From positions 992,001 to 1,056,000 of the forward strand of contig JASTWF010000093.1 of the NCBI GenBank assembly GCA_030390025.1: a DNA stretch of 64,000 nucleotides, read 5' to 3'. Origin of the DNA: Squalus acanthias. Lineage: Eukaryota. Made by a program: the position numbers and the translations under genes. The notes under the pieces are model-generated. The model worked only from the letters and a program-made list of their open reading frames with translations. It was not told the DNA's origin and did not search any database. This document shows, piece by piece, positions 3,315-60,756 of the stretch. Numbering within the stretch: position 1 is the first letter of the stretch; each line of letters opens with the position of its first letter.

Positions 3315-3707
3315 TGTGAGCAGATTGCCTCTTTACTGTGTGGAACATAGGAACAGGAGGAGGCCATTCAGCCCCTCGAGCCTGTTCCGCCATTCAATGA
3401 GATCATGGCTGATCTGTGACTGAAAATGTTGGTAGTGAGGATCCCAGTGTTTTTCTTTTCCATGATTAGCTGCTGTGAGTTCTACACCATGTATTGTTAG
3501 AAATTGGGATTCATGGAGTTATATCGAGTCTACAGCACAGAAACAGGCCATTCGGCCCAACTGCTCTATGCCGGCTTTTATGCTCCATGCGAGACTCCTC
3601 CCAGCCAGAGGATTTGAAGAAATATATTCATCACTGCGTGAGCAAATGATTGTATGTTGGCCTCAGTCTGTGTTGCTTCAGGAGACAGATTTAACTGCAA
3701 AATGTAT

Positions 3708-6700
3708 TTGGGGTGGGCGCGGCTGCAGTTCCAAGAACAGAGGCTTGGGGGTGGGCGCGGCTGCGGTTCCACGAACCGGGGCTTGGGGGTGGGCGCGGCT
3801 GCAGTTCCACGAACCGGGGCTTGGGGGTGGGCGCGGCTGCAGTTCCACGAACCGGGGCTTGGGGGTGGGCGCGGCTGCAGTTCCACGAACCGGGGCTGGC
3901 GGTGGGTGCCGCTGCAGTTCCACGAACCGGGGCTTGGGGGTGGGCGCGGCTGCGGTTCCACGAACCGGGGCCTGGGGGTGGGTGCGGCTGCGGTTCCACG
4001 AACCGGGGCCTGGGGGGCGGGCGGGTCCGCGGTGCCACGCCGCTGGGCGCGGGGGCGGGCGGGTCCGCGGTGCTATGCCCCGGGGCTTGGGGGCGGGCGG
4101 GTCCGCGGTGCCATGCCACGGAGCGCGGGGGAGGGCGCGGCCGCCGTGCCATGCCCCGGGGTGCGGGAGCGGGCGCGTCCACGGTGCCATGCCCCGGGGG
4201 CGGGCGCGGCCGCAGTGCCATGCCGCGGGGCACGGGGACGGCATGGTGCCATGCCCCGGGGCGCGGGGTCGGGCGCGGCCACAGTGCCATGCCCCGGGGC
4301 GCGGGGGAGGCTGCTGTGCCATGCTCCGGGGCGCGGGAGCGGGCGTGGTGCCATGCCCCGGGGCGCGGGAGCGGGCGCGGCCGCGGTGCCATGCTGAGGG
4401 GGCGGGCGCGGCCGCAGTGCCATGCCGCGGGGCGCGGGGGCGGCCGCGGTGCCATGCCCCGGGGCGCGGGGGCAGGCGCGGCCACAGTGCCATGCCCCGG
4501 GGCGCGGGGGCGGGCGCGTCCGCGGTGCCATGCCCCGGGGCGTGGGGCGGGCGCGGTGCCATGCCCAGGGGCGCGCACGTCCGCGGTGCCATGCCCCGGG
4601 GCGCACGCGGTGCCATGCCCCGGGGCGCGGGGGCGGGCGGGTCCTCGGTGCCATGCCCTGGGGCGTGGGGGCGGGCGCGTCCGCGGTGCCATGCCCCGGG
4701 GCGCGGGGGCGGGCGCGGTGCCATGCCCCGGGGCACGGGGGCGGGTGCGTCCGCGGTGCCATGCCCCGGGGCGCGGGGGCGGCTGCTGTGCCATGCTCCG
4801 GGGCGCGGGAGCGGGCGTGGTGCCATGACCCGGGGCGCGGGAGCGGGCGCGGCCGCGGTGCAATGCCGAGGGGGCGGGCGCGGCCGCAGTGCCATGCCGC
4901 GGGGCGCGGGGGCGGCCGCGGTGCCATGCCCCGGAGCGCGGGGGCGGGCGCGGCCGCAGTGCCATGCCCCGGGGTGCGGGAGCGGGCGCGGCCGCGGTGC
5001 CATGCCCCGGGGGCGGGCGCGGCCGCAGTGCCATGCCGCGGGGCACGGGGACGGCATGGTGCTATGCCCCGGGGCGCGGGGTCGGGCGCGGCCACAGTGC
5101 CATGCCCCGGGGCGCGGGGGCGGGCGCGGCCGCAGTGCCATGCCCTGGGGCGCGGGGGCAGGTGCGGCCGCAGTGCCATGCCCCGTGGCGCGGGGGCGGT
5201 GCCATGCCCCGGGGGCGGGCGCGGCCGTAGTGCCATGCCCCGGGGCGGGCTCGGCCGCAGTGCCATGCCCAGGGGCGCGGGTGCGGTGCCATGCCCCGTG
5301 GCGGGCACGGCCGCAGTGCCATGCCCCGGGGCACGCGGGCGGGCGTGGCCACAGTGCCATGCCCCGGGGCGCGGGGGCTGTGCCATGCCCCGGGGCGCGG
5401 GAGCGGGCGCGGCCGCAGTGCCATGCCCCGGGTGCGCAAGTGCCATGCCGCGGGGGCGGGCGCGGCCGCAGTGCCATGCCCCGCGGGCGGGCGCGGCCGC
5501 AGTGCCATGCCCCGGGAGCGGGCGCAGCCGCAGTGCCATGCCCCGGGTGCGCAAGTGCCATGACCCGGGGGTGGGCGCGGCCGCAGTGCCATGCCCCGGG
5601 GGAGGGCGAGGCCGCAGTGCCATGCCCCGGGGACGGGCGCGGCCGCAGTGCCATGCCCCGGGGCGCGGGCGCGGGGGCGGGCGCGGTGCCATGCCCCGGG
5701 GCACGGGGGCGGGTGCGTCCGCGGTGCCATGCCCCGGGGCGCGGGGGCGGCTGCTGTGCCATGCTCCGGGGCGCGGGAGCGGGCGTGGTGCCATGACCCG
5801 GGGCGCGGGAGCGGGCGCGGCCGCGGTGCAATGCCGAGGGGGCGGGCGCAGCCGCAGTGCCATGCCGCGGGGCGCGGGGGCAGGTGCGGCCGCAGTGCCA
5901 TGCCCCGTGGCGCGGGGGCGGTGCCATGCCCCGGGGCGCGGGAGCGGGCGTGGTGCCATGACCCGGGGCGCGGGAGCGGGCGCGGCCGCGGTGCAATGCC
6001 GAGGGGGCAGGGCGCAGCCGCAGTGCCATGCCGCGGGGCGCGGGGGCAGGTGCGGCCGCAGTGCCATGCCCCGTGGCGCGGGGGCGGTGCCATGCCCCGG
6101 GGGCGGGCGCGGCCGTAGTGCCATGCCCCGGGGCGGGCTCGGCCGCAGTGCCATGCCCAGGGGCGCGGGTGCGGTGCCATGCCCCGTGGCGGGCACGGCC
6201 GCAGTGCCATGCCCCGGGGCACGCGGGCGGGCGTGGCCACAGTGCCATGCCCCGGGGCGCGGGGGCTGTGCCATGCCCCGGGGCGCGGGAGCGGGCGCGG
6301 CCGCAGTGCCATGCCCCGGGTGCGCAAGTGCCATGCCGCGGGGGCGGGCGCGGCCGCAGTGCCATGCCCCACGGGCGGGCGCGGCCGCAGTGCCATGCCC
6401 CGGGAGCGGGCGCAGCCGCAGTGCCATGCCCCGGGTGCGCAAGTGCCATGACCCGGGGGTGGGCGCGGCCGCAGTGCCATGCCCCGGGGGAGGGCGAGGC
6501 CGCAGTGCCATGCCCCGGGGACGGGCGCGGCCGCAGTGCCATGCCCCGGGGCGCGGGCGCGGGGGCGGGCGCGGTGCCATGCCCCGGGGCACGGGGCGGG
6601 TGCGTCCGCGGTGCCATGCCCCGGGGCGCGGGGGCGGCTGCTGTGCCATGCTCCGGGGCGCGGGAGCGGGCGTGGTGCCATGACCCGGGGCGCGGGAGCG

Positions 6701-7752
6701 GGCGCGGCCGCGGTGCAATGCCGAGGGGGCGGGCGCGGCCGCAGTGCCATGCCGCGGGGCGCGGGGGCGGCCGCGGTGCCATGCCCTGGAGTGCGGGGGC
6801 GGGCGCGGCCGCAGTGCCATGCCCCGGGGTGCGGGAGCGGGCGCGGCCGCGGTGCCATGCCCCGGGGGCGGGCGCGGCCGCAGTGCCATGCCGCGGGGCA
6901 CGGGGACGGCCATGGTGCCATGCCCCGGGGCGCGGGGTCGGGCGCGGCCACAGTGCCATGCCCCGGGGCGCGGGGGCGGGCGCGGCCGCAGTGCCATGCC
7001 CTGGGGCGCGGGGGCAGGTGTGGCCGCAGTGCCATGCCCCGTGGCGCGGGGGCGGTGCCATGCCCCGGGGCGCGGGTGCGGGCGCGGCCGTAGTGCCATG
7101 CCCCGGGGCGGGCTCGGCCGCAGTGCCATGCCCAGGGGCGCGGGTGCGGTGCCATGCCCCGTGGCGGGCGCGGCCGCAGTGCCATGCCCCTGGGCACGCG
7201 GGCGGGTGTGTTCACAGTGCCATGCCCCGGGGCACGGGGGCTGTGCCATGCCCCGGGGCGCGGGAGCGGGCGCGGCCGCAGTGCCATGCCCCGGGTGCGC
7301 AAGTGCCATGCCGCGGGGGCGGGCGCGGCCGCAGTGCCATGCCCCGGGAGCGGGCGCAGCCGCAGTGCCATGCCCCGGGTGCGCAAGTGCCATGCCCCGG
7401 GGGTGGGCGCGGCCGCAGTGCCATGCCCCGGGGGAGGGCGAGGCCGCAGTGCCATGCCCCGGGGACGGGCGCGGCCGCAGTGCCATGCCCCGGGGGCGGG
7501 AACGGCCGCAGTACCATGCGCCGGGACCGGGCGCGGCCGCAGTGCCATGCCCCGAGGCGCGGGGGCGAGCGCGGCCGCAGTGCCATGCCCCGGGGCGCGG
7601 GCGCGGCCGCAGTGTCATGCCATGGGGCGCGGGCGCGGGTGCGGCCGCAGTGCCATGCCCTGGGGCACGGTGGCGGCGGCCGCAGTGCCATGCCCCCGGG
7701 CGCGGCCACAGTGCCATGCCCCGGGGCTCGGCCGCAGTTCCATGAACCAGGG
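3708..7752. repeat. GC-rich minisatellite with 38-bp base unit (core GTGCCATGCCCCGGGGCGCGGGGGCGGGCGCGGCCGCA), deletion variants and an 888-bp higher-order duplication
   Basis: Direct reading; identical ORF pairs offset by 888 (5291/6179 and 5591/6479). Confidence 0.97.
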
Positions 7753-8178: not shown

Positions 8179-8336
8179 TCACGTAATGCCGTATTCATTT
8201 TGTTTCTCTCCATTTGCCAGTGAAACACGTTTCTTGCACACGGCTATGACTAGAATTACAATTATAAATTCAATAGCAAGGACAGTGACTGCAAGCATCC
8301 AGCGATTTCTTGTAAGAACGTGATCAGTTTTCATTT
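8179..8336 (-). CDS. B7-family/CD276-like gene copy A, exon 4 (TM + tail: EMKTDHVLTRNRWMLAVTVLAIEFIIVILVIAVCKKRVSLANGEKQNEYGIT*); spliced CDS 849 nt, 282 aa
   Basis: Acceptor TTTTTTTTCCCACAG|, phase 1; hydrophobic stretch followed by CKKR stop-transfer; TGA at 8181-8179. Not in the ORF track; translated by hand. Confidence 0.85.
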
Positions 8337-10369: not shown

Positions 10370-10654
10370 CTACAGAAAGACCAAATGTTCGAGAAACTGA
10401 TTGGTGTAGAACATCATTTCTTAATCTGAATGTGTAGTTAGAACTCCTATTGGTGTCATTGATTTGCAAAATACTCTGCAGGGAGTATAGACCATCTCCA
10501 CTTTGTTGGTACGAAGTCTCAGACAGTGAAGAAATATCCTCATTTTCTTCATTGTACCAGGAAACAGTAGCCTCAGGGTAACCTTGGGACTCGAATCTGA
10601 ACACTGTCCCGGATGGTGTTAACTGAATAAAAAAGTCAGGTTCCTTGTAGTATG
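10370..10654 (-). CDS. B7-family/CD276-like gene copy A, exon 3 (IgC-like domain, cysteine-free)
   Basis: Acceptor TTTTTAATCTACAG|, donor GTAG|GTAAGT, 285 nt. YYKEP, GYPEATVSW, GLYSLQSIL, RNDVLHQ parallel CD276 YSKP, GYPEAEVFW, GLFDVHSIL, RNPVLQQ. Confidence 0.9.
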
Positions 10655-11242: not shown

Positions 11243-11593
11243 CTGCAAATATTAGAGACACAATGCCCTGGCCATTTCCTTTTCCATTCCTGACAAAGCA
11301 CACATACTGTCCAGCATCCTCTGGTCTCACTCTGTCCAGCTTCACTGAAACGTTCCCTTGTTTTATCTTCTCTGGGAATAAGCTTGCCCTCCCCGAATAC
11401 CGAGGGCTTTGGCGACTCAGTTGCTCTTTTCCAGAATAATAATAAACAACTTCCTCCGTCTCGACACGGTGCCAACTGATGAACAGCAGATCCAGTGACG
11501 ATTCACCCTGAGCTGTAAAGCTGCAACTCAGCACCGTGTACTGGCCGTAGATAGCAGTCACTGGTGCTTCTGGGGTGTGGACTTGAAACTGAG
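11243..11593 (-). CDS. B7-family/CD276-like gene copy A, exon 2 (IgV domain)
   Basis: Acceptor TTCACAG|, donor GCAG|GTACAT, 351 nt, phase 1-1. V-set motifs LSC, W, RASLF, GNVSVKL, EDAGQYVC resemble the CD276/butyrophilin IgV. Confidence 0.92.
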
Positions 11594-16067: not shown

Positions 16068-16122
16068 CTTGAGCCAAACCGAATTCAACAGCCACCAAAA
16101 CAGCGAGCAGACTTCTCACCAT
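16068..16122 (-). CDS. B7-family/CD276-like gene copy A, exon 1 (signal peptide MVRSLLAVLVAVEFGLAQ)
   Basis: ATG at 16122 in AGTATGG context; 18 mostly hydrophobic codons + 1 nt; donor CAAG|GTAAGT; phase 1 matches the IgV exon; homologous exon in copies B and C. Confidence 0.85.
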
Positions 16123-27591: not shown

Positions 27592-27646
27592 ATGGTGAGA
27601 AGTCTGCTCGCTGTTTTGGTGGCTGTTCAATTCAGTTTGGCTCGAG
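27592..27646 (+). CDS. B7-family/CD276-like gene copy B, exon 1 (signal peptide MVRSLLAVLVAVQFSLAR)
   Basis: ATG at 27592; donor CGAG|GTAAGT; paralog of copy A exon 1. Confidence 0.82.
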
Positions 27647-27997
27647 GTAAGTCTTTAAATGTAACTGTTTCCTTGCACACATTAGAATGAACGATCCACA
27701 CAGTTTGAGGTGGTCTTTTCACCACTGAGCAATGGCCCAAAGCAATAACAGTACTTTCACTTGTAATAGCAAAATACTGCGGATGCTGCAAATCTGAAAT
27801 AACAGAAAATGCTGGAAATACTCAGCAAGTCAGGCAGCATCTGTGGAGAGAAAAACAAGAGTTAACGTTTCAGGTCTGGGACCGAAGGGTTTCACTTGTA
27901 ATGTTGGGTCAGTTTAATGGGCAAGATGGATAATTCCCAAGTAAACATTGTTCATGGAGCTGAAAATAATATTTCAAAGAAATAGCCCCTGTCTATT

Positions 27998-29584
27998 TAC
28001 ATAAGAACAGAAGAAATGGGAGCAGGAATAGGCCACTTGGCCCCTCGAGCCTGCTCCGCCATTCAATAAGATCATGGCTGATCTTGGGCTCAAAGCCACT
28101 TCCCTGCCCGCTCCCCATATCCCTTCACTCCCTTATCTTGTAAAAATCTGTATCTCCACCTTAAATGTATTTAATGACCCAGCCTCCACGGCTCTCTGGG
28201 GCAGAGAATTCCACAGATTTACGACCCTCTGAGAAGAAATTCCTCCTCATCTCACTTCTAAAATGGCGACCATTTATTCTGAAACTATGCCCCTGAGTTC
28301 TAGATTTCCCCACGAGGGGAAACATCCTCTCTGCATCTACCCTGTCGAGCCCACTCAGTATCTTGTATGTTTCAATAAGATCACCTCTCATTCATCTAAA
28401 TTCCAATGAGTATAGGCCCAACCTGCTCAACCTTTCTTCATAAGTCAACCCCCTCATCTCTGGAATCAACTGTGTGAATCGTCTCTGAACTGCCTCCAAT
28501 GCAAGTATATCCTTCCTTAAATAAGGAGACCAAAACTGTATGCAGTACTCAAGGTGTGGTCTCACCAATACCCTGTACAGTTGTAGCAGGACTTCTCTGC
28601 TTTTATACTCCAACCCCCTTGCAATAAAGGCCAACATTCCATTTGCCTTTTTGATTACTTGCTGCACCTGCATGCTAACTTTTTGTGTTTCATGCACAAG
28701 GACACCCAGGTCCCTCTGAACTGTAGCATTTTGTAATCTGTCTCCATTTAAAAAATAATTTGCTTTTTTATTTTTCCTGGCAAAGTGGATAACCTTGCAC
28801 TTTCCCACATTATACTCCATCTGCCAAATGTTTGCCCACTCATTTAGCCTGTCTATATCCCTTTGCAGATTCTTTGAGTCCTCTGTACAACTTGCTTTCC
28901 CACCCATCTTTGTATCATCCGCAAACTTAGCTACAGTACACTCGGTCCCTTCATCCAAGTCATTAATGTAGATTGTAAATAGTTGATTCCTGTGGCACCC
29001 CACTAGTTACCGTTTGCCAACCGGAAAATGACCCATTTATCCCGACTCTCTGTTTTCTGTTAATTAACCAATTCTCTATCCATGCTAATATATTACCCCC
29101 AGCTCCGTGAGCTCTTACCTTATGCAGTAACCTTTTACGTGGCACCTTATCGAATGCCTTCAGGAAATCCAAATACACCACATCCACTGGCTCGCCCTTA
29201 ACCACCCTGCTCGTTACATCCTCAAAGAACTCCAGCAAATTTGTTAAACATGATTTCCCTTTCATAAAACCATGCTGACTCTGCTTGACTGCATTGATTT
29301 TCCAAATGCCCTGCTAATGCTTCCTTCATGAAGGACTCCAGCATTTTCCCAACGACAGATGTTAGGCTAACTGGTCTATAGTTTCCTGCTTTCTTTCTCC
29401 CTCCTTTCTTGAATAGGGGTTTTACATTTGCGGTTTTCCAATCCGCTGGGACCTCTCCAGAGTCCAGGGAATTTTGGTAGATTACAACCAATGCATCCAC
29501 TATCTCTGCAGCCACTTCTTTTAAGACCCTGGGATGTAGGCCATCTGGTCCAGGGGACCTGTTGTCTTTTAGTCCCATTATTTT
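27998..29584 (-). mobile_element. CR1 LINE, paralogous copy in intron 1 of gene B
   Basis: Same motifs including FADD; uninterrupted tail. Confidence 0.92.
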
Positions 29585-29875
29585 GTGGTGTTTACTGATC
29601 ATGTTGCTGCAGTTACTTTTTTTGATGTCCATTTTGTGAGGTGAGGGAACAAAACTTTTTCTATTTCAATAGATCACAGAAAATATCAACCCAGGAAATA
29701 TCAACCCTTCTGGAGAAGAGAAAATACAGCTGTGGGGATAATTACTACTTAGTGCTTTCCTGTGTTCAAGATTAAATCTCGTATTAATCATCCTTTTAAA
29801 GTAAAATATTCTGAAGAGTCAAGATTAAATCTCTTGGAACAATGCTGTTACTAATCTATTTGTTTGAATTCACAG

Positions 29876-30226
29876 CTCAGTTTCAAGTCCACACCCCTGA
29901 AGCACCAGTGACTGCTGTCTACGGCCAGTACACGGTGCTGAGTTGCAGCTTTACAGCTCGGGGTGAATCGTCACTGTATCTGCTGTTCATCAGTTGGCAC
30001 CGTGTCGAGACAGAGGAAGTTGTTTATTATTATTCTGGAAAAGAGCAACTGAGTCGCCAAAGCCCTCGGTATTCGGGGAGGGCAAGCTTATTCCCAGAGG
30101 AGTTAAAACAAGGGAACGTTTCAGTGAAGCTGGACAGAGTGAGACCAGAGGATGCTGGACAGTACCTGTGCTTAGTCAGGAACACAAAAGGAAATGGCCA
30201 GGGCATTGTGTCTCTAATATTTGCAG
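29876..30226 (+). CDS. B7-family/CD276-like gene copy B, exon 2 (IgV)
   Basis: TTCACAG| acceptor, |GTACAT donor, 351 nt open, both Ig cysteines intact. Confidence 0.88.
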
Positions 30227-30811
30227 GTACATGCTTCTTTCAGTTTTCATTTTTGTTCTGTCAGTGCTGCAAATTAAAGTCATGCTTCTTGGCCTCCCCT
30301 GATGGCTCAGTGAGTCTCGCCATTGAGTGCCTGAGCCGTACAGACCAGGTTTGATGCCCAGACTCTGCTGGTTTAACTCCTCTCCGCTGGAGCAGTGCTA
30401 TTGGTGCAATCGACACACCTCGGTTAGGGTTGGCACTCCCATTTGCTATTCAGCAAGTCCTGCCTGTGGACGGCTCCAGGATCGGGCTGAACTGTGATGG
30501 CCTCGCAGGTGAAAAGCCCACTGATATTTACCATCAAGGGTTACGTATGATTTTGGCTGAACAGCTGCCAGCAGGATATTGTGGGATTTTCACCTTCAAC
30601 TTGATCACTTGGTACAATGATTTGAATATCTCCAAATTGATCACAAACAGCAATATCTACTATTCTGTTTGTACTTGGATTTGTTGTTCTTGAGCATTTA
30701 AAGCTTTTATTGCATTATTCAATTAGTTATTAACTGGAACAAGATTCCTAGTTGGCATTATTTTTATCAAGTTTATTTCTTGTTTCTAATGACCCTTTTT
30801 TTAATCTACAG

Positions 30812-31538
30812 CATACATGGTGGCATAGTGGTTAGCACTGGTGCCTCACAGCGCCAGGGACCCGGGTTCGAATCTGGCCTCGGGTGACTGTCTGTGTGGA
30901 GTTTGCACATTCTCCCCGTGTCTGCGTGGGTTTCCTCCGGGTGCTCCGGTTTCCTCCCACAGTCCAAAAATGTGTGGGTTAGGTTGATTTGGCTATGATA
31001 AATTGACCCTTAGTGTTAGGGGGGGATTAAATATGTGGGGTTATGGGGATAGGATGGGATATGTTAGGGGGAATTAAATACGTGGGGTTATGGGGATAGG
31101 GTGGGATATGTGTCGGTGCAGGCTCAATGGGGATTCTGTGTGAGAAAGCAGGGACAGGGTACTGGATTTGGATGATCAGCCATGATCGTATTGAATGGTG
31201 GAGCAGGCTCGACGGGCCGAATGGCCTACTTCTGCTCCTAGTTTCTATGTTTCTTTCCTACAAGGAACCTGACTTTTTTATCCAATTAACACCATCCGGG
31301 ACAGTGTTCAGATTCGAGTCCCAAGGTTACCCTGAGGCTACTGTTTCCTGGTACAATGAAGAAAATGAAGATATTTCCACACTGTCTGAGACTTCGTACC
31401 AACAAAGTGGAGATGGTCTATACTCCCTGCAGAGTATTCTGCAAATCAATGACACCAATAGGAGTTCTAGCTACACATTCAGATTAAGAAATGATGTTCT
31501 ACACCAATCAGTTTCTCGAACATTTGGTCTTTCTGTAG
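30812..31538 (+). pseudogene. Copy B exon 3 (IgC-like), interrupted after its 5th nt by a 442-bp SINE; coding parts 30812-30816 and 31259-31538
   Basis: The CATAC|TACAAGGAACCT of copy A is split by the insert; the original acceptor reads A-Y-M-V-A-TAG (30826-30828); donor is GTAAAT versus GTAAGT in A/C. May be rescued by alternative splicing (see findings). Confidence 0.75.
30817..31258 (+). mobile_element. tRNA-derived V-SINE (HE1-like) with CR1-type tail, inserted in exon 3 of gene B
   Basis: A box TGGCATAGTGG, B box GGTTCGAATC, V-core GTGGAGTTTGCACATTCTCCCCGTGTCTGCGTGGGTTTCCTCCGGGTGCTCCGGTTTCCTCCCA; absent in copies A and C. Confidence 0.88.
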
Positions 31539-33068
31539 GTAAATTGTGTCCAACACTCAGTACTCATAACCTCCAGTTGTCTTCCGATACAATTCTGAAT
31601 CACGACATCTTGATCTCCATGCCATTTGAAGTAAAGGAAATCTTCTTTCAGTTCTTCAGAAACTTCTGTTCCAGTTTCTTTCTGGTTCCACAAGTATAAA
31701 CCGCTGCACCTTTTTAACTTTCATGGCCCTACACTTCTTGACTTATCAATGTTCTTGGCCTCACTATCTCCCAAGACCACAAATGGAGCTGCTGCATTGC
31801 GCGGCTGCTCTCAAAAGCTGTTTCCTCGTTTGTGCCAAACACTTCTTACCAAATACCTTTAACTCTCTATAGCTCGAGTCCTTTTGTGACTTGGATTCTG
31901 CTCCCATATTTGGGAAGACTCTCCTTAATGTCTCCCTCGCTCCTTGGAGAGGATATAAGAAGTTCTCTCTATGCTGTATTGTACCCTCCACGCTATGTAA
32001 ACTTCTGCTCATCCAAAACACTGCTGCCCTTCTCCTATCCTGCACTACGATCTGCTAACCCTCTCCCTGTGCTCGCTGGCCTACATTAGCTCCTGGTTAC
32101 CAACGCCTCAAATTAAAAATTCTTATCCTTGTGGTTAAAACCCTTCATGGCCTCGTCCCTCCTAATCTCTCTGTACCCTTCTCTAGCCCTACAACCCTCT
32201 GAGACCTCTGCATTGCTCCAACTCTGGCATCTTGTGAATTCCCTACTGCCATCGCCCTGCCACTGGCAGCCATCTATAGCTTGCGCTCCAGAATTCCCTC
32301 CCTAAACCTCTCTCTTTTCTCCTCCCTTTTTTAAAACTTTCCTTAAAATCCACCTCTTTGACCAAGCTTTTAGTCACCCCTTCTAATATCTCTCTTTTTA
32401 GGTGTCAGCCTTGCATCAGGTAGGAGAATGTTGTGGGTTCAAGCCCAACTCCAGAGACTTGAGCACAAAAATCTAGGCTGACACTCCAGCACTGTGCTGA
32501 GGGAGTGCTGCACTGTCGGGGGTGCCGCCTTTCAGATGAGACGTTAAACCGAGGCACCGTCTGCTCTCTCAGGTGGACGTAAAAGATCCCATGGCACTAT
32601 TGCGAAGAGCAGGGGAATTCTCCCCAGTGTCCTGATCATTATTATCCTTCAACCAACATCACTTTTAAAAAAAAAACACCAGATTATCTGGTCATTATCT
32701 AATTACTGTTTGTGGGAGCTTGCTGTTCACAAATTGACTGCCACGTTTCCTGCATTACAACAGTGTAGTACCTCATTGGCTGTAAAGCGCTTTGGGGTTG
32801 TGAAAGGTGCTGTATAAATACGTGTTTTTTTTGGCTGATTACGCTACTGTGAAGCACCTTGGGATGTTTTTCTACATTAAAGGCGCTATATCAATGCACT
32901 TTGTTTCTGGTTTAGGCTACTACTGTGTTATCCAACGTTTAAAAATACTTTCACCATACAATTACATTGTTAAATGTGGTTGTATTTTAAACTGTATTAG
33001 CATAGAAGACCAAACCAGCACTGAAACCACTGCCGTAATGATCAATAGTTTTCTTCCTTTCTTCACAG

Positions 33069-33208
33069 AAATGAAAACTGATCACGTTCTTACAAGAAAT
33101 CGCTGGATGCTTGCAGTCAATGTCCTTGCTATTGCATTTATAATTGTAATTCTAGTCATAGCCGTGTGCAAGAAACGTGTTTCACTGGCAAATGGAGAAA
33201 CAAAATGA
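33069..33208 (+). CDS. B7-family/CD276-like gene copy B, exon 4 (TM + short tail ...AVNVLAIAFIIVILVIAVCKKRVSLANGETK*)
   Basis: Acceptor CTTTCTTCACAG|; C-terminal part of track ORF 32807..33208. Confidence 0.8.
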
Positions 33209-37242: not shown

Positions 37243-37772
37243 CTCCCATTGTAACATCCAATTGTTTAGTGATTCTAGGTTTTTTGCCTCCACTTTCTCT
37301 GGAAGTTTATTCCACATGTTGATCACTGTGTGAAGATGAATTTCCTGATACCTGTCCTAAAACTACCTTTTACTAGCCTGAACCTGTGTCCTCTAGATCT
37401 ACTTCGGCAACTTAATTTAAAGTCACATTCTGGGTTAACTTTTTCTATACCTGTAGCAATCTATATGCCTCTATAAGATCATCTTTCAGCTGCCTCTTTC
37501 TCGGTGGGGAAAAAACCCAGTCTTTCCCCTCAGTTCAGAGCCCTGACACCTGAGAATCAGTCTTGTGGCTCTTCTCTGCACCACCTTCAGCATTTGGCTG
37601 TCTCTTGCTTCTGGGTGACCAGAATGGGATGCAGTATTCAAGGTTTGGGTGAACAAAGGCACTATAAATTTTTATTATATTCTACCATTTTTGGGCTGTA
37701 TAATTCAACATTGTGTCGGCTTTGCTGCTAACCGCTCTGCCTTGGTTGGCCATACTTATCGTAGAGTCTAGC

Positions 37773-39470
37773 CACCACGGGATACACTCACTGGAAGGAG
37801 ACACCGCGGGACACTCTCACTGGGAGGAGACACCGCGGGACACATTCACTGGGAGGAGACACCGCGGGACACACTCACTTGAAGGAGACACCGCGGGACA
37901 CACTCACTGGAAGGAAACACCGCGGGACACACTCACTGGAAGGAGACACCGCAGGACACACTCACTAGAGGGAGACACCGCGGGACACACTCACTGGAAG
38001 GAGACACCGCGGGACACACTCACTGGAAGGAGACACCGCGGGACACACTCACTGGAAGGAGACACCGCGGGACACACTCACTGGAAGGAACCACCACGGG
38101 ACACACTCACTGGAAGGAGACACCGCGGGACACACTCACTGGAAGGAGACACAGCGGGACACACTCACTGGAAGGAGACACCGCGGGACACACTCACTGG
38201 AAGGAGACACCGCGGGACACACTCACTGGAAGGAGACACCGCGGGACACACTCACTGGAAGGAGACACCGCGGGACACACTCACTGGAAGGAGACACACC
38301 GCGGGACACACTCACTGGAAGGAGACACCGCGGGACACACTCACTGGAAGGAGACACCGCGGAACACACTCACTGGAAGGAGACACCGCGGGACACAGTC
38401 ACCGGAAGGAAACACCGCGGGACACACTCACTGGAAGGAGACACCGCGGGACACACTCACTGGAAGGAGACACCGCAGGACACACTCACTGGAAGGAGAC
38501 ACCGCGGGACACACTCACTGGAAGGAAACACCGCGGGACACACTCACTGGAAGGAGACACCGAGGGACACACACACTGGAAGGAAACACCGCGGGACACA
38601 CTCACTGGAGACACCGCGGGACACACTCACTGGAAGGAGACACCGCGGGACACACTCACTGGAAGGAGACACCGCGGGACACACTCACTGGAAGGAGACA
38701 CCGCGGGACACACTCACTGGAAGGAGACACCGCGGGACACACTCACTGGAAGGAGACACCGCGGGACACACTCACTGGAAGGAAACACCGCGGGACACAC
38801 TCACTGGAGACACCACGGGACACACTCACTGGAAGGAGACACCGCGGGACACACTCACTGGAAGGAGACACCGCGGGACACACTCACTGGAAGGAGACAC
38901 CGCGGGACACACTCACTGGAGACACCGCGGGACACACTCACTGGAAGGAGACACCGCGGGACACAGTCACTGGAAGGAGACACCGCGGGACACAGTCACT
39001 GGAAGGAGACACCGCGGGACACACTCACTGGAAGGAGACACCGCGGGACACAGTCACTGGAAGGAGACACCGCGGGACACACTCACTGGAAGGAACCACC
39101 ACGGGACACACTCACTGGAAGGAGACACCGCGGGACACACTCACTGGAAGGAGACACCGCGGGACACACTCACTGGAAGGAGACACCGCGGGACACACTC
39201 ACTGGAAGGAGACACCGCGGGACACACTCACTGGAGACACCGCGGGACACACTCACTGGAAGGAGACACCGCGGGACACACTCACTGGAAGGAGACACCG
39301 CGGGACACACTCACTGGAGACACCGCGGGACCCACTCACTGGAAGGAGACACCGCGGGACACACTCACCGGAAGGAGACACCGCGGGACACACTCACTGG
39401 AAGGAGACACTCCGCGGGACACACTCACTGGAAGGAGACACTCCGCGGGACACACTCACTGGAAGGAGAC
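37773..39470. repeat. 29-bp minisatellite GGGACACACTCACTGGAAGGAGACACCGC, ~58 units, with some 24-bp deletion variants
   Basis: Direct reading; 29-aa periodicity of the spurious ORF equals 3 units. Confidence 0.97.
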
Positions 39471-39479
39471 ATGCTATAA

Positions 39480-50686: not shown

Positions 50687-51079
50687 TGTGAGCAGATTGC
50701 CTCTTTACTGTGTGGAACATAGGAACAGGAGGAGGCCATTCAGCCCCTCGAGCCTGTTCCGCCATTCAATGAGATCATGGCTGATCTGTGACTGAAAATG
50801 TTGGTAGTGAGGATCCCAGTGTTTTTCTTTTCCATGATTAGCTGCTGTGAGTTCTACACCATGTATTGTTAGAAATTGGGATTCATGGAGTTATATCGAG
50901 TCTACAGCACAGAAACAGGCCATTCGGCCCAACTGCTCTATGCCGGCTTTTATGCTCCATGCGAGACTCCTCCCACCCAGAGGATTTGAAGAATTATATT
51001 CATCACTGCGTGAGGAAATGATTGTATGTTGGCCTCAGTCTGTGCTGCTTCAGGAGACAGATTTAACTGCAAAATGTAT

Positions 51080-53032: not shown

Positions 53033-53462
53033 CACACGCACACACACCACCCCCCCACCCCCCCCGGGAGAAGGCCCGAAGACATTCACAGTGCAAGTGT
53101 TAAACTGAAGGAGGACAGGGTGCTAAAATAACTCAACCAATTCTTGGAGACAATGACAAAAGAACAAAATGGCATTAAAAACAAAGCTTTATTACATTAA
53201 CCTGTCCTGATCCAGCAGAAGATGGACAAAAAAAACACTATTGTATTAAATAAAGAGTTTGGAAGTTACAAATGAGAAAAGGGACCAATCAGATGGCACT
53301 TCTTATTCTGCGTCTTGATATTTAGTAGTGAGGGTTAAGGAGACATGTCCACATTTGCACAAGGCTGCGAATAGCAGAAACCCACTATGTTGCGACTGTA
53401 AATATCGGTTTTCATGGCTGAAGGGGCAGCGTCCAATCACATGCATTTTCTTGAATGATCCA

Positions 53463-53620
53463 TCACGTAATGCCGTATTCATTTTGTTTCTCTCCATTTG
53501 CCAGTGAAACACGTTTCTTGCACACGGCTATGACTAGAATTACAATTATAAATTCAATAGCAAGGACAGTGACTGCAAGCATCCAGCGATTTCTTGTAAG
53601 AACGTGATCAGTTTTCATTT
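53463..53620 (-). CDS. B7-family/CD276-like gene copy C, exon 4 (TM + tail ...NEYGIT*)
   Basis: Matches copy A exon 4; acceptor at 53622-53621, stop at 53465-53463. Confidence 0.85.
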
Positions 53621-54207
53621 CTGTGGGAAAAAAAAGGAAGAAAACTATTGATCATTACGGCAGTGGTTTCAGTGCTGGTTTGGTCTTCTATGCTAAATCA
53701 GCTAAAAAAAGCCCACACATTTACACAGCGCCTTTCACAACCCCAAAGCGCTTTACAGCCAATGAAGTACTTCAAGTGGTCACTGTTGTAATGCAGGAAA
53801 CGCAGCAGTCAATTTGCACACAGCAAGCTCCCACAAACAGTAATTAGATAATGACCAGATAATCTGTTTTTTAAAAGTGATGTTGGTTGAAGGATAATAA
53901 TAGTCAGGACACCAGGGAGAACTCCCCTGCTCTTCATAATAGTGCCATGGGATCTTTTACATCCACCTGAGAGCAGACAGGGCCTCTGTTTAACATCTCA
54001 TCTGAAAGGCGGCACCTCCGACAGTGCAGCACTCCCTCAGTATTGTGCTGGAGTGTCAGCCTAGATTTTTGTGCTCAAGTCTCTGGAGTTGGGCTTGAAC
54101 CCACGACCTTCTACCACTGATGCATGGCTGACACCTAAAGAGAGATATTAGGCAGGGTGACTAAAAGCTTGGTCAAAGAGGTGGATTTTAAGGAAAGTTT
54201 TAAAAAG

Positions 54208-54247
<40 letters not shown>

Positions 54248-55003
54248 GTTTAGGGAGGGAATTCTGGAGCGCAAGCTATAGATGGCTGCCAGTGGCAGTA
54301 GGGAATTCACAAGATGCCAGAGTTTGAACAATTCAGGGGTCTCAGAGGGTTGTAGGGCTAGAGAAGTGTACAGAGATAAGGAGGGACGAGGCCACAAAGG
54401 GACTTAACCACAAGGATAAGAATTTTTAATTTGAGGCGTTGGTAACCAGGTGCTAATGTAGGCCAGCGAGCACAGGGGGAGGGTTAGCAGATCGTAGTGC
54501 AGGATAGGAGAAGGGCAGCAGAGATTTGGATGAGCAGAAGTTTACATAGCGTGGAGGGTACAATACAGCATAGAGAGAACTTCTTATATCCTCTCCAAGG
54601 AGCGAAGGAGACATTAAGGAGAGTCTTCCCAAATATGGGAGCAGAATCCAAGTCACAAAAGGACTCGAGCTATAGAGAGTTAAAGGTATTTGGTAAGAAG
54701 TGTTTGGCACAAACGAGGAAACAGCTTTTGAGCAGCCGAGCAATGCAGCAGCTCCATTTGTGGTCTTGGGAGATAGTGAGGCCAAGAACATTGATAAGTC
54801 AAGAGAAGTGTAGGCCCATGAAAGTTAAAAAGGTGCAGCGGTTTATACTTGTGGAACCAGAAAGAAACTGGAACAGAAGTTTCTGAAGAACTGAAAGAAG
54901 ATTTCCTTTACTTCAAATGGCATGGAGATCAAGATGTCGTGATTCAGCATTGTATCGCAAGACAACTGGAGGTTATGAGTACTGAGTGTAGGACACAACT
55001 TAC

Positions 55004-55288
55004 CTACAGAAAGACCAAATGTTCGAGAAACTGATTGGTGTAGAACATCATTTCTTAATCTGAATGTGTAGTTAGAACTCCTATTGGTGTCATTGATTTG
55101 CAGAATACTCTGCAGGGAGTATAGACCATCTCCACTTTGTTGGTACGAAGTCTCAGACAGTGAAGAAATATCCTCATTTTCTTCATTGTACCAGGAAACA
55201 GTAGCCTCAGGGTAACCTTGGGACTCGAATCTGAACACTGTCCCGGATGGTGTTAACTGAATAAAAAAGTCAGGTTCCTTGTAGTATG
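55004..55288 (-). CDS. B7-family/CD276-like gene copy C, exon 3 (IgC-like, cysteine-free)
   Basis: Intact 285-nt exon; protein identical to copy A as far as I can read. Confidence 0.9.
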
Positions 55289-55876
55289 CTGTAGATTAAA
55301 AAAAGGATCATTAGAAACAAGAAATAAACTTGATAAAAATAATGCCAACTAGGAATTTTGTTCCAGTTAATAACTAATTGAAAATTGCAATAAAAGCTTT
55401 AAATGATCAAAAACAACAAATCCAAGTACAAACAGAATAGTAGATATTGCTGTTTGTGATCAATTTGGAGATATTCAAATCATTGTACCAAGTGATCAAA
55501 TTGAAGGTGAAAATCCCACAATATCCTGCTGGCAGCTGTTCAGCCAAAATCATACATAACCCTTGATGGTAAATATCAGTGGGCTTTTCACCTGCGAGGC
55601 CATCACAGTTCAGCCCGATCCTGGAGCCGTCCACAGGCAGGGCTTGCTGAATAGCAAACGGGAGTGCCAACCCTAACCGAGGTGTGTCGATTGCACCAAT
55701 AGCACTGCTCCAGCGGAGAGGAGCTAAACCAGCACAATCTGGGTATCAAACCTGGTCTGTATGGCTCAGGCACTCAATGGTGAGACTCACTGAGCCATCA
55801 GGGGAGGCCAAGAAGCATGACTTTAATTTTTCAGAACTGACTGAGAACAAAAATGAAAACTGAAAGAAGCATGTAC

Positions 55877-56227
55877 CTGCAAATATTAGAGACACAATGC
55901 CCTGGCCATTTCCTTTTCCGTTCCTGACAAAGCACACATACTGTCCAGCATCCTCTGGTCTCACTCTGTCCAGCTTCACTGAAACGTTCCCTTGTTTTAA
56001 CTCCTCTGGGAATAAGCTTGTCCTCCCCGAATACCGAGGGCTTTGGCGACTCAGTTGCTCTTTTCCAGAATAATAATAAACAACTTCCTCCGTCTCGACA
56101 CGGTGCCAACTGATGAACAGCAGATCCAGTGACGATTCACCCTGAGCTGTAAAGCTGCAACTCAGCACCGTGTACTGGCCGTAGACAGCAGTCACTGGTG
56201 CTTCTGGGGTGTGAACTTGAAACTGAG
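55877..56227 (-). CDS. B7-family/CD276-like gene copy C, exon 2 (IgV)
   Basis: Same splice sites as copy A; 4 amino-acid differences from A. Confidence 0.92.
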
Positions 56228-56518
56228 CTGTGAATTCAAACAAATAGATTAGTAACAGCATTGTTCCAAGAGATTTAATCTTAACTCTTCAGAATATTTT
56301 ATTTTAAATGGATGATTAATACGAGATTTAATCTTGAACACAGGAAAGCACTAAGAAGTAATTATCCCCACAGCTGTATTTTCTCTTCTCCAGAAGGGTT
56401 GATATTTCCTGGGTTGATATTTTCTGTGATCTATTGAAATAGAAAAAGTTTTGTTCCCTCACCTCACAAAATGGACATCAAAAAAAGCAACTGCAGCAAC
56501 ATGATCAGTAAACACCAC

Positions 56519-58070
56519 AAAATAATGGGACTAAAAGACGACAGGTCCCCTGGACCAGATGGCCTGCATCCCAGGGTCTTAAAAGAAGTGGCTGCAGAGA
56601 TAGTGGATGCATTGGTTGCAATCTACCAAAATTCCCTGGACTCTGGAGAGGTCCCAGCGGATTGGAAAACCACAAATGTAACACCCCTATTTAAGAAAGG
56701 AGGGAGACAGAAAGCAGGAAACTATAGACCAGTTAGCCTAACATCTGTCGTTGGGAAAATGCTGGCGTCCTTCATTAAGGAAGCATTAGCAGGGCATTTG
56801 GAAAATCAATGCAGTCAAGCAGAGTCAGCATGGTTTTATGAAAGGGAAATCATTTTTAACAAATTTGCTGGAGTTTATTGAGGATGTAACGAGCAGGGTG
56901 GATAAGGGTGAGCCAGTGGATGTGGTGTATTTGGATTTCCAGAAGGCATTCAATAAGGTGCCACATAAAAGGTTACTGCATAAGATAAGAGCGCACAGAG
57001 TTGGGGGTAATATATTAGCATGGATAGAGAATTAGTTAACTAACAGAAAACAGAGAGTCGGGATAAATGGGTCATTTTCCAGTTGGCAAACGCTAACTAG
57101 TGGGGTGCCACAGGGATCGGTGCTGGGGCCTCAACTATTTACAATCTACATTAATGACTTGGATGAAGGGACCGAGTGTACTGTAGCTAAGTTTGCAGAA
57201 GATACAAAGATGGGTGGGAAAGTAAGTTGTGCAAAGGGATATAGACAGGCTAAGTGAGTGGGCAAACATTTGGCAGATGGAGTATAATGTGGGAAAGTGC
57301 AAGGTTATCCACTTTGGCAGGAAAAATAAAAAAGCTAGTTATTTTTTTAAATGGAGATTACAAAATGCTTCAGTTTAGAGGGACCTGGGGGTCCTTGTGC
57401 ATGAAACACAAAAAGTTAGCATGCAGGTGCAGCAAGTAATCAAAAAGGCAAATGGAATGTTGGCCTTTATTACAAGGGGGTTGGAGTATAAAAGCAGAGA
57501 AGTCCTGCTACAACTGTACAGGGTATTGGTGAGACCACACCTTGAGTACTGCATACAGTTTTGGTCTCCTTATTTAAGGAAGGCTATACTTGCATTGGAG
57601 GCAGTTCAGAGACGATTCACACAGTTGATTCCAGAGATGAGGGGATTGACTTATGAATAAAGGTTGAGCCTATACTCATTGGAATTTAGATGAATGAGAG
57701 GTGATCTTATTGAAACATACAAGATACTGAGGGGGCTCGACAAGGTAGATGCAGAGAGGATGTTTCCCCTCGTGGGGAAATCTAGAACTCAGGGGCACAG
57801 TTTCAGAATAAAGGGTCGCCCTTTTAGAACCGAGATGAGGAGGAATTTCTTCTCTGAGGGTCGTAAATCTGTGGAATTCTCTGCCCCAGAGAGCCTCGGA
57901 GGCTGGGTCATTAAACACATTTAAGGTGGAGATAGACAGATTTTTACAAGATAAGGGAGTGAAGGGTTATGGGGAGCGGGCGGGGAAGTGGCTTTGAGCC
58001 CAATATCAGCCATGATCTTATTGAATGGCAGAGCAGGCTCGAATGGCCAAGTGGCCTATTCCTGCTCCTA
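56519..58070 (+). mobile_element. CR1 LINE, duplicate in intron 1 of gene C
   Basis: Offset 44634 from 11885-13436. Confidence 0.92.
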
Positions 58071-60314
58071 CAAAAAGAAAATACTGCAGATGCTGGAAAT
58101 CTGAAATAAAAACAGAAAATGCTGGAGATACTCAGCAGGTCAGGCAGCATCTGTGAAGAGAGAAACAGAGTTAACGTTTCAGGTCGATGACCTTTCGTCA
58201 GAACTGGAAAAAAGCAGGAAATGGAACATATTTTTAAGCAAGTGTAGCAGCTGGGAAAGGGGGGAGGGGATGAAAGAACAAAAGGGAAGGTCTGTGATAG
58301 GATAGAAGGCAGGAGAGGTTAAGAGACATTAAGAGATATTCAAGGCAAAAGGAGATGGTAATGGGACAGGTTAAGAAACAAAGGATGGCTCTAGATGAAG
58401 TGTAAATTGCACTGGCAGAATGAAAGACAGCTGCCATGTGGGGGAGAAGAAAAGACAAAAAGGTGTGGATAAAAAATATATATAGGATAGGGGCTGAGGT
58501 TATGATCTGAAATTGTTGAACTCTACGTTGAGTCCAGAAGGCTGTAAAGTGCCTAATCGAAAGATGAGGTGCTGTTCCTCGAGCTTACGCTGAGCTTCAG
58601 TGGAACAATGCAAGAGGCCGAGGACGGTGAGGTCTGAGTGGGAGTGGAGCAGAGAATTAAAGTGACAGGCGACCAGTAGCTCAGGGTCCCCCTTACGGAC
58701 TGACCGGAGGTGTTCCGCAAAGCGGTCACCCAATCTGCGTTTGGTCTCCCCAATGTAGAGGAGACCGCATCGTGAGCAGCAAATACAGTATACTAAATTG
58801 CAAGAAGTACAAGTAAATCGCTGTTTCACCTGGAAGGGGTGTTTCGGGCCCTGGACAGTGGGAAGGGGGGAGGTATAAGGGCATGTGTTGCATCTCCTGC
58901 GCGTGCACGGGAAGGTGCTGGGTGAAGGGGAAGGGGTGCTGGGGGTGATAGAGGAGTGGACTAGGGTGTCTCGGAGGGAGCGGTCCCTACGGAATGCTGA
59001 AAGGGGAGGTGAGGGGAAGATGCGTTTGGTGGTGGGATCACGCTGGAGGTGGCGGAAATGGCACAGGATGATCCGTTGAATGTGGAGGCTGGTGGGGTGA
59101 AAGGTGAGGACAAGGGGAACTCTATCGTGGTTCCGGGAGGGAGGGGCAGGGGTGAGGGCAAAAGTGCGGGAGATAGAACGGACACAGTCGAGGGCCGTGT
59201 CAACTACGGTAGAGGGGAATCCTCGGTTGAGGAAAAAGGAAGACATGTCGGAAGCACTGGTATGGAAGGTGGCATCGTCGGAGCAGATACGGCGGAGACG
59301 GAGAAACTGGGAGAATGGAAGAGAGTCCTTACAGGAGGCGGGGTGGGAGGAAGTATAGTCCAGGTAGCTGTGGGAGTCAGTGGGCTTGTAGTGAATGTTG
59401 GTCAATAACCTATCCCCAGAGATGGAGATGGAGAAGTCGAGGAAGGGAAGAGTCGGAGATGGACCATGTGAAGGTGAGGGAAGGGTGGAAATTGGAGGCA
59501 AAGTGAATGAAATTGTCTAGTTTAGGGCGAGAGCAGGAAACGGCACCGATACAGTCATCAATGTACCGGAAAAAGAGGTGAGGGAGGGGACCCGAGTAGG
59601 ACTGGAACAAAGAGTGTTCCACATATCCCACGAAAAGGCAGGCATAGCTAGGAGCCATGTGGGTACCCATAGCAACACCTTTGATTTGGAGGAAATGAGT
59701 GGAGTCAAAGGAGAAGTTGTTCAATGTGAGAACAAGTTCAGCTAGGCGGAGGAGGGTGCTGGTGGATGGGGACTGGTTGGGCCTCTGTTCAAGGAAGAAG
59801 CGGAGCGCAGTCAAGCCATCCTGGTGGGGGATGTTACCTGGCCTGCTGAGTTTTTCCAGCACTTTCTGTTGTTATTTCAGTTTTCCAGCATCTGCAGTAT
59901 TTTGCTATTGTATTAGAGGTGAGGGGAAGATCTGTTTGGTGGTGGGATCACACTGGAGGTGGCGGAAATGGTGGAGGATGATCCATTGAATGTGGAGGCT
60001 GGTGGGGTGAAAGGTGAGGACAAGGGGAACTCTATCGTGGTTCTGGGAGGGAGGGGCAGGGGTGAGGGCAGAAGTGCGGGAGATAGAACGGACACGGTCA
60101 AGGGCCGTGTCAACCACAGTAGAGGGGAATCCTCGGTTGAGGAAAAAGGAAGACATGTCGGAAGCACTGGTATTCCCAACCCCTACACTTGCTTAAAAAT
60201 CTGTTCCATTTCCTGCTTTTTTCCAGTTCTGACGAAAGGTCATCGACCTGATACGTTAACTCTGTTTCTCTCTTCACAGATGCTGCCTGACCTGCTGAGT
60301 ATCTCCAGCATTTT
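58071..60314 (-). mobile_element. Penelope-like family 2 (duplicate, intron 1 of copy C)
   Basis: 333-aa ORF 58500..59501 with RT thumb and GIY-YIG; offset 44634. Confidence 0.92.
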
Positions 60315-60701
60315 CTATTCCTGCTCCTATTTCTTATGTTCTTATGTAAATAGACAGGGGCTGTTTCTTTGAAATATTCTTTTCAGCTCCATGAACAATA
60401 TTTACTTGGGAATTATCCACCTTGCCCATTAAAATTACCCAACATCACAAGTGAAACCCTTCGGTCCCAGACCTGAAACGTTAACTCTGTTTCTCTCTCC
60501 ACGGATGCTGCCTGACCTGCTGAGTATTTCCAGCATTTTCTGTTGTTATTTCAGATTTGCAGCATCTGCAGTATTTTGCTATTACAAGTGAAACTACTGT
60601 TATTGCTTTGGGCCATTGCTCAGTGGTGAAAAGACCACCTGAAACTGTGTAGATCGTTCATTCAAATGTGTGCAAGGAAACAGTTACATTTAAAGACTTA
60701 C

Positions 60702-60756
60702 CTTGAGCCAAACCGAATTCAACAGCCACCAAAACAGCGAGCAGACTTCTCACCAT
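60702..60756 (-). CDS. B7-family/CD276-like gene copy C, exon 1 (signal peptide)
   Basis: Matches copy A exon 1 at offset +44634. Confidence 0.85.

What the first reader, a model, noticed from the sequence alone, without database searches (positions are those of the whole stretch)
10370..10654. Second Ig domain has no cysteine: both canonical disulfide positions are Phe
Seen: the 95-codon exon encodes no Cys in any copy. Against CD276 as I recall it, TITCSSYQGYP corresponds to VFRFESQ-GYP and TYSCLVRNPVL to NYTFRLRNDVL, while the C-strand Trp and the Tyr corner are kept. Established: the B-F strand disulfide is nearly invariant in B7 IgC domains. Inference: a paired Cys->Phe replacement forming an aromatic core suggests a stable, selected variant fold rather than decay, and could be a diagnostic for an undescribed B7 subfamily.
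Basis: partly seen in the sequence, partly recalled or inferred. Interest (0 to 1): 0.72.

Follow-up and report, generated by a model that had tools for sequence, protein, structure and literature searches.

The report
Ancient disulfide-free B7 immune ligand family
This spliced shark gene encodes a B7-type cell-surface immune protein whose second antibody-like domain has phenylalanines where the usual disulfide bond sits, a loss shared with relatives from chimaeras to turtles, so it marks an old, likely unnamed branch of the B7 family that databases label as CD276-like.

Summary
Observation confirmed. The 285-nt exon (10654-10370, minus strand) has no Cys. Phe20 and Phe75 fall in the columns where 12 of 12 other B7/butyrophilin genes of this genome have Cys. 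It is the IgC exon of a four-exon, 282-aa signal-IgV-IgC-TM gene, spliced exactly so in contigs from two studies. It is under purifying selection (dN/dS about 0.2 between subfamilies) and is predicted to keep the B7 IgC fold (pLDDT 95). Not decay.

The mark is loss of both cysteines; Phe/Phe occurs in only 54 of 167 relatives (B strand F/Y/L/V/A, F strand mostly F). The lineage is not CD276, which is a separate gene here, and it is not shark-specific: chimaera, gar, sturgeon, bichir, teleosts, lungfish, coelacanth and turtles have it. No mammal, bird or amphibian member appeared.

Two extras: one shark/ray subfamily carries its own new Cys pair (13 of 13), and a turtle paralogue nested in the lineage has both canonical Cys, possibly regained. 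Disulfide-free Ig domains are known elsewhere. Whether this branch already has a name could not be checked, because the key papers are not held.

The parts
16068..16122 (-). Copy 1, coding part of the signal-peptide exon (ATG at 16122)
   Evidence: joined to the IgV exon in contig X5 record 16
11243..11593 (-). Copy 1, IgV exon, both canonical Cys kept
   Evidence: Pfam V-set E 3.4e-13
10370..10654 (-). Copy 1, IgC exon with no cysteine (the finding); three N-glycosylation sequons
   Evidence: Pfam C2-set_3 33.3 bits, over its cut-off of 27; exact boundaries in spliced contigs
10593..10595 (-). Phe20 codon TTC at the B-strand Cys position
10557..10559 (-). Trp32 codon, C-strand core Trp
   Evidence: Trp in 166 of 167 Cys-less domains
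10428..10430 (-). Phe75 codon TTC at the F-strand Cys position
8179..8336 (-). Copy 1, transmembrane and short-tail exon to the stop; Glu inside the membrane helix (codon 8271-8269)
   Evidence: joined to the IgC exon in contigs X1 record 1 and X2 record 8
27592..33206 (+). Copy 2 (inverted): signal exon from 27592, IgV about 29876-30226, IgC 30812-31538 interrupted, TM exon from about 33067
30817..31257 (+). About 440-nt insertion 5 nt inside the IgC exon of copy 2; SINE-like by inspection (inferred)
   Evidence: no Rfam match of note
53463..60756 (-). Copy 3: signal 60756-60702, IgV 56227-55877, IgC 55288-55004, TM 53620-53463; within a 9.1-kb block 99.4% identical to copy 1

Best explanation
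The exon encodes the membrane-proximal IgC domain of a spliced B7-family surface protein, and both canonical cysteines are replaced by Phe; the domain is predicted to keep the normal B7 IgC sandwich, likely with Phe20, Phe75 and Trp32 filling the core where the disulfide would be. The loss is old: it is shared by a lineage present in chimaera, sharks, rays, ray-finned fish, lungfish, coelacanth and turtles, so it predates the split of cartilaginous and bony fish (inferred from the trees). The protein most likely works as other B7 proteins do. The disulfide-bonded IgV would be the receptor-binding end and the IgC a glycosylated stalk, with a tail of about 18 residues (inferred by homology). The receptor is most likely of the CD28 family, with the CD28H-like receptors that humans lack as candidates (hypothesis, untested). 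In this shark the gene has been multiplied in tandem and many copies are decaying (birth and death).
For: Shown. (1) Gene anatomy and splice signals. (2) Contigs of runs X1, X2, X5 and X6, from two studies, join signal|IgV|IgC|TM at the predicted bases, with 1-6 differences across the IgC exon (table 8). (3) 12 of 12 other V+C genes recovered from this genome have Cys/Cys at the same columns, including a CD276 orthologue (L042) and a PD-L1 orthologue (L041). (4) Among 167 Cys-less domains the B position is F65 Y50 L24 V18 A6 M2 I2 and the F position F137 V21 L8 I1, all hydrophobic. (5) dN/dS of the IgC exon is 0.19-0.20 (window subfamily vs B), 0.22 (vs C) and 0.34 (vs D); pN/pS is 0.33 among 13 recent copies against 0.66 for their IgV. 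(6) The window's own branch (sharks, chimaera, lungfish, gar, sturgeon, teleosts) is supported 100/99 and 100/98 on V+C, 99/98 on V alone and 93/95 on C alone, with the two Cys columns removed. Predicted: seven-strand fold, pLDDT 95.4, pTM 0.85, same strands from the single sequence (83.3); best structural matches are B7-H3 (Foldseek E 1.2e-6), BTN1A1 (Z 14.0, rmsd 1.8 over 92) and PD-L1 (Z 13.6).
Against: No coordinates were available, so Phe-Trp packing is inferred from strand register only. AlphaFold confidence does not measure stability. A single origin for all Cys-less members is only moderately supported: 95/97 under LG+G4, 89/89 under the mixture model, unresolved on V alone or C alone. 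The runs are guessed to be RNA and come from relatives, so expression of this particular copy is not shown. dS between subfamilies is 0.85-1.9, near saturation; one pair gives 0.61 (C vs D) and the two B copies give 0.94 on 4 differences. No evidence on the receptor was obtained.
Confidence: 0.8

Rival explanations
1. Two or more independent losses: the window's branch and a second branch (shark L040 type, coelacanth, bowfin, eel, turtles) lost the disulfide separately, and the turtle paralogue with both Cys simply retained the ancestral bond.
For: The two branches differ by one residue before GYP. V-only and C-only trees do not unite them. The C-only AU test does not reject holding the Cys-bearing turtle gene outside the Cys-less set (p 0.148).
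Against: V+C trees unite the branches (95/97, 89/89) and nest the turtle gene among Cys-less turtle genes (100/99, 100/100). Retention would need about five separate double losses, most ending in Phe at the F strand. AU on V+C rejects excluding the turtle gene (p 1.2e-4 and 2e-5).
Confidence: 0.3
2. The lineage is an already named non-mammalian B7 member (for example the fish 'B7H5' of earlier surveys), and its missing disulfide may be in print.
For: PMC11599192 (passages) says teleost surveys found B7H1/B7DC, B7H3, B7H4, B7H5 and B7H7. The lineage is widespread in carps, catfish and salmonids, where such surveys looked.
Against: Database names are generic: mostly 'CD276 antigen-like', some VTCN1-like, butyrophilin-like or PD-L1-like. 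Ten full-text searches listed no paper describing it, but the library lacks the relevant papers.
Confidence: 0.4
3. Pseudogene decay or relaxed constraint in a duplicated CD276 copy.
For: 13 of 31 close copies have a stop, frameshift or lost acceptor in this exon. Both Phe codons (TTC) are one base from TGC.
Against: The same state is found in other sharks, rays and a chimaera; dN/dS is about 0.2; spliced contigs exist; true CD276 is a separate gene on another contig (L042).
Confidence: 0.02

Closest known systems
CD276 / B7-H3
   Same: Best sequence and Foldseek match; signal-IgV-IgC-TM layout; GYP, C-strand Trp and F-strand Asn motifs.
   Different: CD276 keeps the IgC disulfide and has its own orthologue in this genome (L042, groups with mammalian-type CD276 100/99). 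The IgC exon is 26-28% identical to L042.
PD-L1 / PD-L2 and butyrophilin IgC domains
   Same: Fold matches at Z 13-14; PD-L1 has the same spacing between the B-strand position and GYP; Pfam C2-set_3 over cut-off.
   Different: All keep Cys/Cys; separate clades, with own-genome representatives L041 and L050-L060.
HHLA2 / B7-H7
   Same: The named B7 proteins at the tail of the profile search; fell inside the group on a quick V-only tree.
   Different: Keeps its IgC Cys; the careful V-only tree does not support the link; V+C trees place it elsewhere.
Naturally disulfide-free Ig domains (CD2 and CD58 domain 1, CD4 domain 3, CEACAM N domains, PDGFR-family domain 4, many titin domains) - recalled, not from a call
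   Same: B/F cysteines replaced by hydrophobic residues with the fold retained.
   Different: Those are V- or I-type domains in other families. I recall no B7 IgC example, and none of the canonical B7/butyrophilin paralogues recovered here lacks the pair.

Membership tests
B7 family | Type I membrane protein, signal-IgV-IgC-TM-short tail, one exon per domain | tested here: met
B7 family | IgC of B7/butyrophilin type by sequence and fold | tested here: met
   Pfam C2-set_3 and C2-set_2 over cut-off; predicted model matches B7-H3, BTN and PD-L1
B7 family | B-F disulfide in IgV | tested here: met
   Cys 42 and 117 of the 282-aa product; invariant in 46 of 46 aligned IgV domains
B7 family | B-F disulfide in IgC (four conserved cysteines) | tested here: not met
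   Phe/Phe. This is the variant feature; it is usual in B7 proteins, but descent rests on the other rows.
B7 family | Binds a CD28-family receptor and modulates lymphocytes | not testable with these tools
   needs binding assays; the complex predictor was not available
CD276 / B7-H3 orthologue | Groups with CD276 in a tree | tested here: not met
   L042 is the orthologue (100/99; 99/98); the window gene lies in another clade
CD276 / B7-H3 orthologue | Conserved synteny with CD276 | not tested
   only contigs known: CD276-like gene on C19; this family on C3806, C16, C4 and others
Fish 'B7H5' or Xenopus 'B7HXen' of earlier surveys (B7HXen name recalled) | Sequence identity with the published members | not testable with these tools
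   papers not held; 'B7HXen' has 0 full-text hits

The most novel reading that the evidence does not exclude
An unnamed B7 subfamily as old as jawed vertebrates lost the IgC disulfide once, persisted from chimaeras to turtles and vanished from mammals. It supplies ligands for the CD28H-like receptors that humans also lack. It has twice re-invented a disulfide: a new Cys pair in one shark/ray subfamily, and the canonical B-F bond itself in a turtle paralogue, a reversal of an Ig hallmark after some 200 million years or more.
Probability: 0.3. Interest if true: 0.75.

Novelty: new variant of a known kind. Interest (0 to 1): 0.52.

Why it matters
B7 proteins set the second signal for T cells. Four CD28-family receptors found in fish and some tetrapods but not in humans were described in 2024, with ligands left to further work (PMC11599192, Discussion read). 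A sequence-diagnosable B7 lineage with a similar range gives concrete candidates, and corrects many database entries named CD276-like that are not CD276. Structurally it is a natural series on one scaffold: disulfide present, replaced by aromatic or aliphatic pairs, replaced by a new Cys pair, and possibly regained. That makes the question of what the Ig disulfide is for directly testable. The local finding alone (an Ig domain without its disulfide) has many precedents.

Tried and rejected
Pseudogene decay and mis-alignment: rejected (see rivals). FxFxSxGYP...YTFxLxN as the diagnostic: rejected, it fits only part of the lineage. HHLA2 as sister group: seen on a FastTree V tree, not upheld by IQ-TREE. 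Linkage to the MHC: a search of the genome with the MHC class II beta family found nothing and its control rang nowhere, so it is uninformative; no synteny was obtained. AU tests of the window's branch with PD-L1 or CD276: not run, the script machine was lost. The run search listed no holder on record as RNA; only the exon-exon joins in contigs are used. Rfam: one chance-level hit on the copy-2 insertion. Earlier-findings look-ups by sequence, words and near place were empty. Literature: ten searches, none listing a description of the lineage; the last was swamped by fisheries papers and carries no weight. The one supplement searched (PMC3964593) had none of the B7 terms. Supplements of PMC11599192 and PMC12151841 were not opened and may list such sequences. 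Absence from mammals, birds, squamates and amphibians rests on ranked, word-seeded or truncated hit lists with names checked for 30 of the 150 representatives; it is not proven.

Full report
Observation. The stretch 10370-10654 is an exon on the minus strand: AG, 285 nt, GT, phase 1 at both ends, 94 full codons without a stop or a Cys. The window holds three copies. Copy 3 is 99.6% identical. Copy 2 is inverted and has an insertion of about 440 nt five bases into the exon. A genome search gave 51 matches among 103 candidates. Of 31 close copies checked, all have Phe codons at both positions and 18 are intact with no Cys; 13 have a stop, frameshift or lost acceptor. Some copies on different contigs share the same lesion, so haplotigs may inflate the count.

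Register. Phe75 aligns with the F-strand Cys of CD276 directly. For the B strand, ungapped alignment to CD276 is off by one and puts Cys against Arg19, because CD276 has an extra residue before GYP. PD-L1 puts its Cys on Phe20 without a gap. In a MAFFT alignment of 245 V-linked IgC domains, Phe20 and Phe75 sit in the columns where 12 of 12 other B7/butyrophilin genes of this genome have Cys (12 of 19 fetched stretches yielded a C exon).

The gene. Signal exon (ATG 16122 to 16068), IgV 11593-11243, IgC 10654-10370 and TM exon 8336-8179 give a 282-aa type I membrane protein with Cys only at 42, 117 and 264 and three sequons in the IgC. Contigs from four runs of two studies carry the exons joined at exactly these bases: X5 record 16 signal|V|C, X2 record 8 V|C|TM, X1 record 1 C|TM, X6 record 21 V|C. 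The runs are only guessed to be RNA and differ by 1-6 bases in the exon, so they show that the gene family is spliced with this exon, not that this copy is expressed.

Relatives. The exon finds 13 shark and ray proteins at 41-88% identity, almost all named CD276 antigen-like. Profiles extend this to Callorhinchus and gar, and the full-library search gave 290 proteins at E <= 0.001. Named members come from sturgeon, bichir, bowfin, eels, tarpon, arapaima, herring relatives, carps, catfish, characins, salmonids, lungfish, coelacanth and many turtles. After dropping six poorly aligned rows and four truncated ones, 167 of 245 domains lack both Cys: B position F65 Y50 L24 V18 A6 M2 I2, F position F137 V21 L8 I1, Phe/Phe 54 (isoforms and near-duplicates included). 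The cysteines are lost together and always replaced by hydrophobic residues. No mammal, bird, squamate or amphibian member was seen, but these lists cannot prove absence.

Trees, with the two Cys columns removed. The window's branch (four shark subfamilies, chimaera, lungfish, gar, sturgeon, teleosts) is firm: 100/99 and 100/98 on V+C, 99/98 on V, 93/95 on C. Because it holds both cartilaginous and bony fish, the loss predates their split. A second Cys-less branch (shark L040, coelacanth, lungfish, bowfin, sturgeon, eel, turtles) joins it at 95/97 under LG+G4 and 89/89 under the mixture model, but is unresolved on single domains. CD276 (L042) and PD-L1 (L041) have their own orthologues in this genome, so the gene is neither.

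Selection and fold. dN/dS of the IgC exon is 0.19-0.34 between the window's subfamily and three others, with dS 0.85-1.4; other pairs range up to 0.61. Among 13 recent copies pN/pS is 0.33 for IgC and 0.66 for IgV. AlphaFold2 gives a seven-strand sandwich, pLDDT 95.4 with 108 sequences and 83.3 alone, with Phe20 in strand 15-24, Trp32 in 29-33 and Phe75 in 71-79. Best matches are B7-H3, ICOS-L, butyrophilins and PD-L1 (Z 13-14, rmsd about 1.8-2.1). Packing of the Phe pair on the Trp is inferred from register; no coordinates were returned. The Cys-Cys-Trp triad as the Ig norm is stated in PMC11926128 (passages).

Two departures inside the lineage. First, all 13 members of subfamily D (Leu/Val at B/F) have Cys at positions 34 and 71, and none of the other 154 has either. 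These lie at the neighbouring ends of strands C and F, so a substitute disulfide is likely (inferred). Second, turtles have a paralogue with both canonical Cys (8 of 9 rows; one model is aberrant). It nests among Cys-less turtle genes at 100/99 and 100/100, and AU tests reject excluding it (p 1.2e-4, 2e-5). Its IgC is 37-44% identical to its closest Cys-less relatives (turtle, coelacanth) and at most 33% to canonical B7 domains, and one tortoise has both kinds on contigs of the same length (P0226, P0245). One loss plus one regain is the shortest history. Against it: the C-only AU test is not significant (p 0.148), and the careful V-only tree breaks up the turtle group.

Mechanism. Shown: a spliced, conserved V-C-TM B7 protein without the IgC disulfide. 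Inferred: bulky hydrophobic side chains fill the core; the IgC is a glycosylated stalk; the IgV, which keeps its disulfide and varies more among copies, binds the receptor. Hypothesis: the receptor is one of the CD28-family members absent in humans (CD28HL1-3, CD28X; PMC11599192, passages and Discussion read). Their ranges overlap but do not match exactly (CD28HL1 also occurs in frogs and birds). No binding evidence was obtained. The window's subfamily also has a Glu in the membrane helix, kept from chimaera to rays, which suggests pairing within the membrane (untested).

Novelty. Disulfide-free Ig domains are known in other families (recalled). Ten full-text searches listed no description of this B7 lineage. 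I saw passages only of PMC12151841, PMC10751288, PMC12227049, PMC3172298 and PMC9127221, none mentioning it. The three most relevant B7-evolution papers are not held, and a fish 'B7H5' is named in PMC11599192, so a prior name is quite possible. An earlier report of this scan on another piece of the genome reached the same reading (e1-9825737); it is not independent evidence.

Verdict. New variant of a known kind, interest 0.52.

Noticed in passing
P0229, P0239, P0245, P0246, P0267, P0272, P0273, P0278 (turtles): A turtle paralogue nested among Cys-less genes has both canonical IgC cysteines, plus a third Cys on strand E: possible regain of the disulfide.
   Followed up: partly
L039:3158-3433 (G000 C2339) and 12 shark/ray proteins such as P0013: Subfamily D has Leu/Val at the B/F positions and a private Cys pair at positions 34 and 71 (13 of 13, 0 of 154 others): likely substitute disulfide.
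   Followed up: partly
window 8271-8269 and 53555-53553: Glu in the middle of the transmembrane helix, present in 12 shark, ray and chimaera proteins and in none of the bony-vertebrate rows among 129 listed; copy 2 has Ala there.
   Followed up: partly
window 30817-31257: SINE-like insertion 5 nt into the IgC exon of copy 2; an AG near its 3' end could act as an in-frame acceptor adding four residues (untested).
   Followed up: partly
window 40469-40600 (+): A second, diverged TM exon with the same membrane Glu and a good acceptor, 7 kb downstream of copy 2's TM exon; an alternative or orphan exon.
   Followed up: no
L064/L069 and L070 (G000 C5:145.19 and 145.38 Mb); L049 (C5:145.14 Mb): Two CD28H-like V exons lie 43 kb and 231 kb from an HHLA2-like gene: possible linkage of receptor and ligand genes.
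   Followed up: partly
L065-L067 (G000 C3:111.88-112.15 Mb): Three ICOS-V-set matches in a row, two with PPPY loops: likely the CD28/CTLA4/ICOS-type cassette.
   Followed up: no
G000 C26:0.02-7.6 Mb: Large cluster of butyrophilin-like V exons (dozens of matches); the five with a C exon recovered from C26 have canonical Cys.
   Followed up: partly
window 3707-7750, 51079-53035 and 37770-39471: GC-rich satellite arrays next to the gene copies, producing long spurious ORFs; LINE-type reverse-transcriptase fragments fill the introns and spacers.
   Followed up: no
L008:278-322: One genomic copy has a 15-codon piece of the IgC exon fused to the GC-rich satellite 1.2 kb before the intact exon, a trace of local rearrangement.
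   Followed up: no
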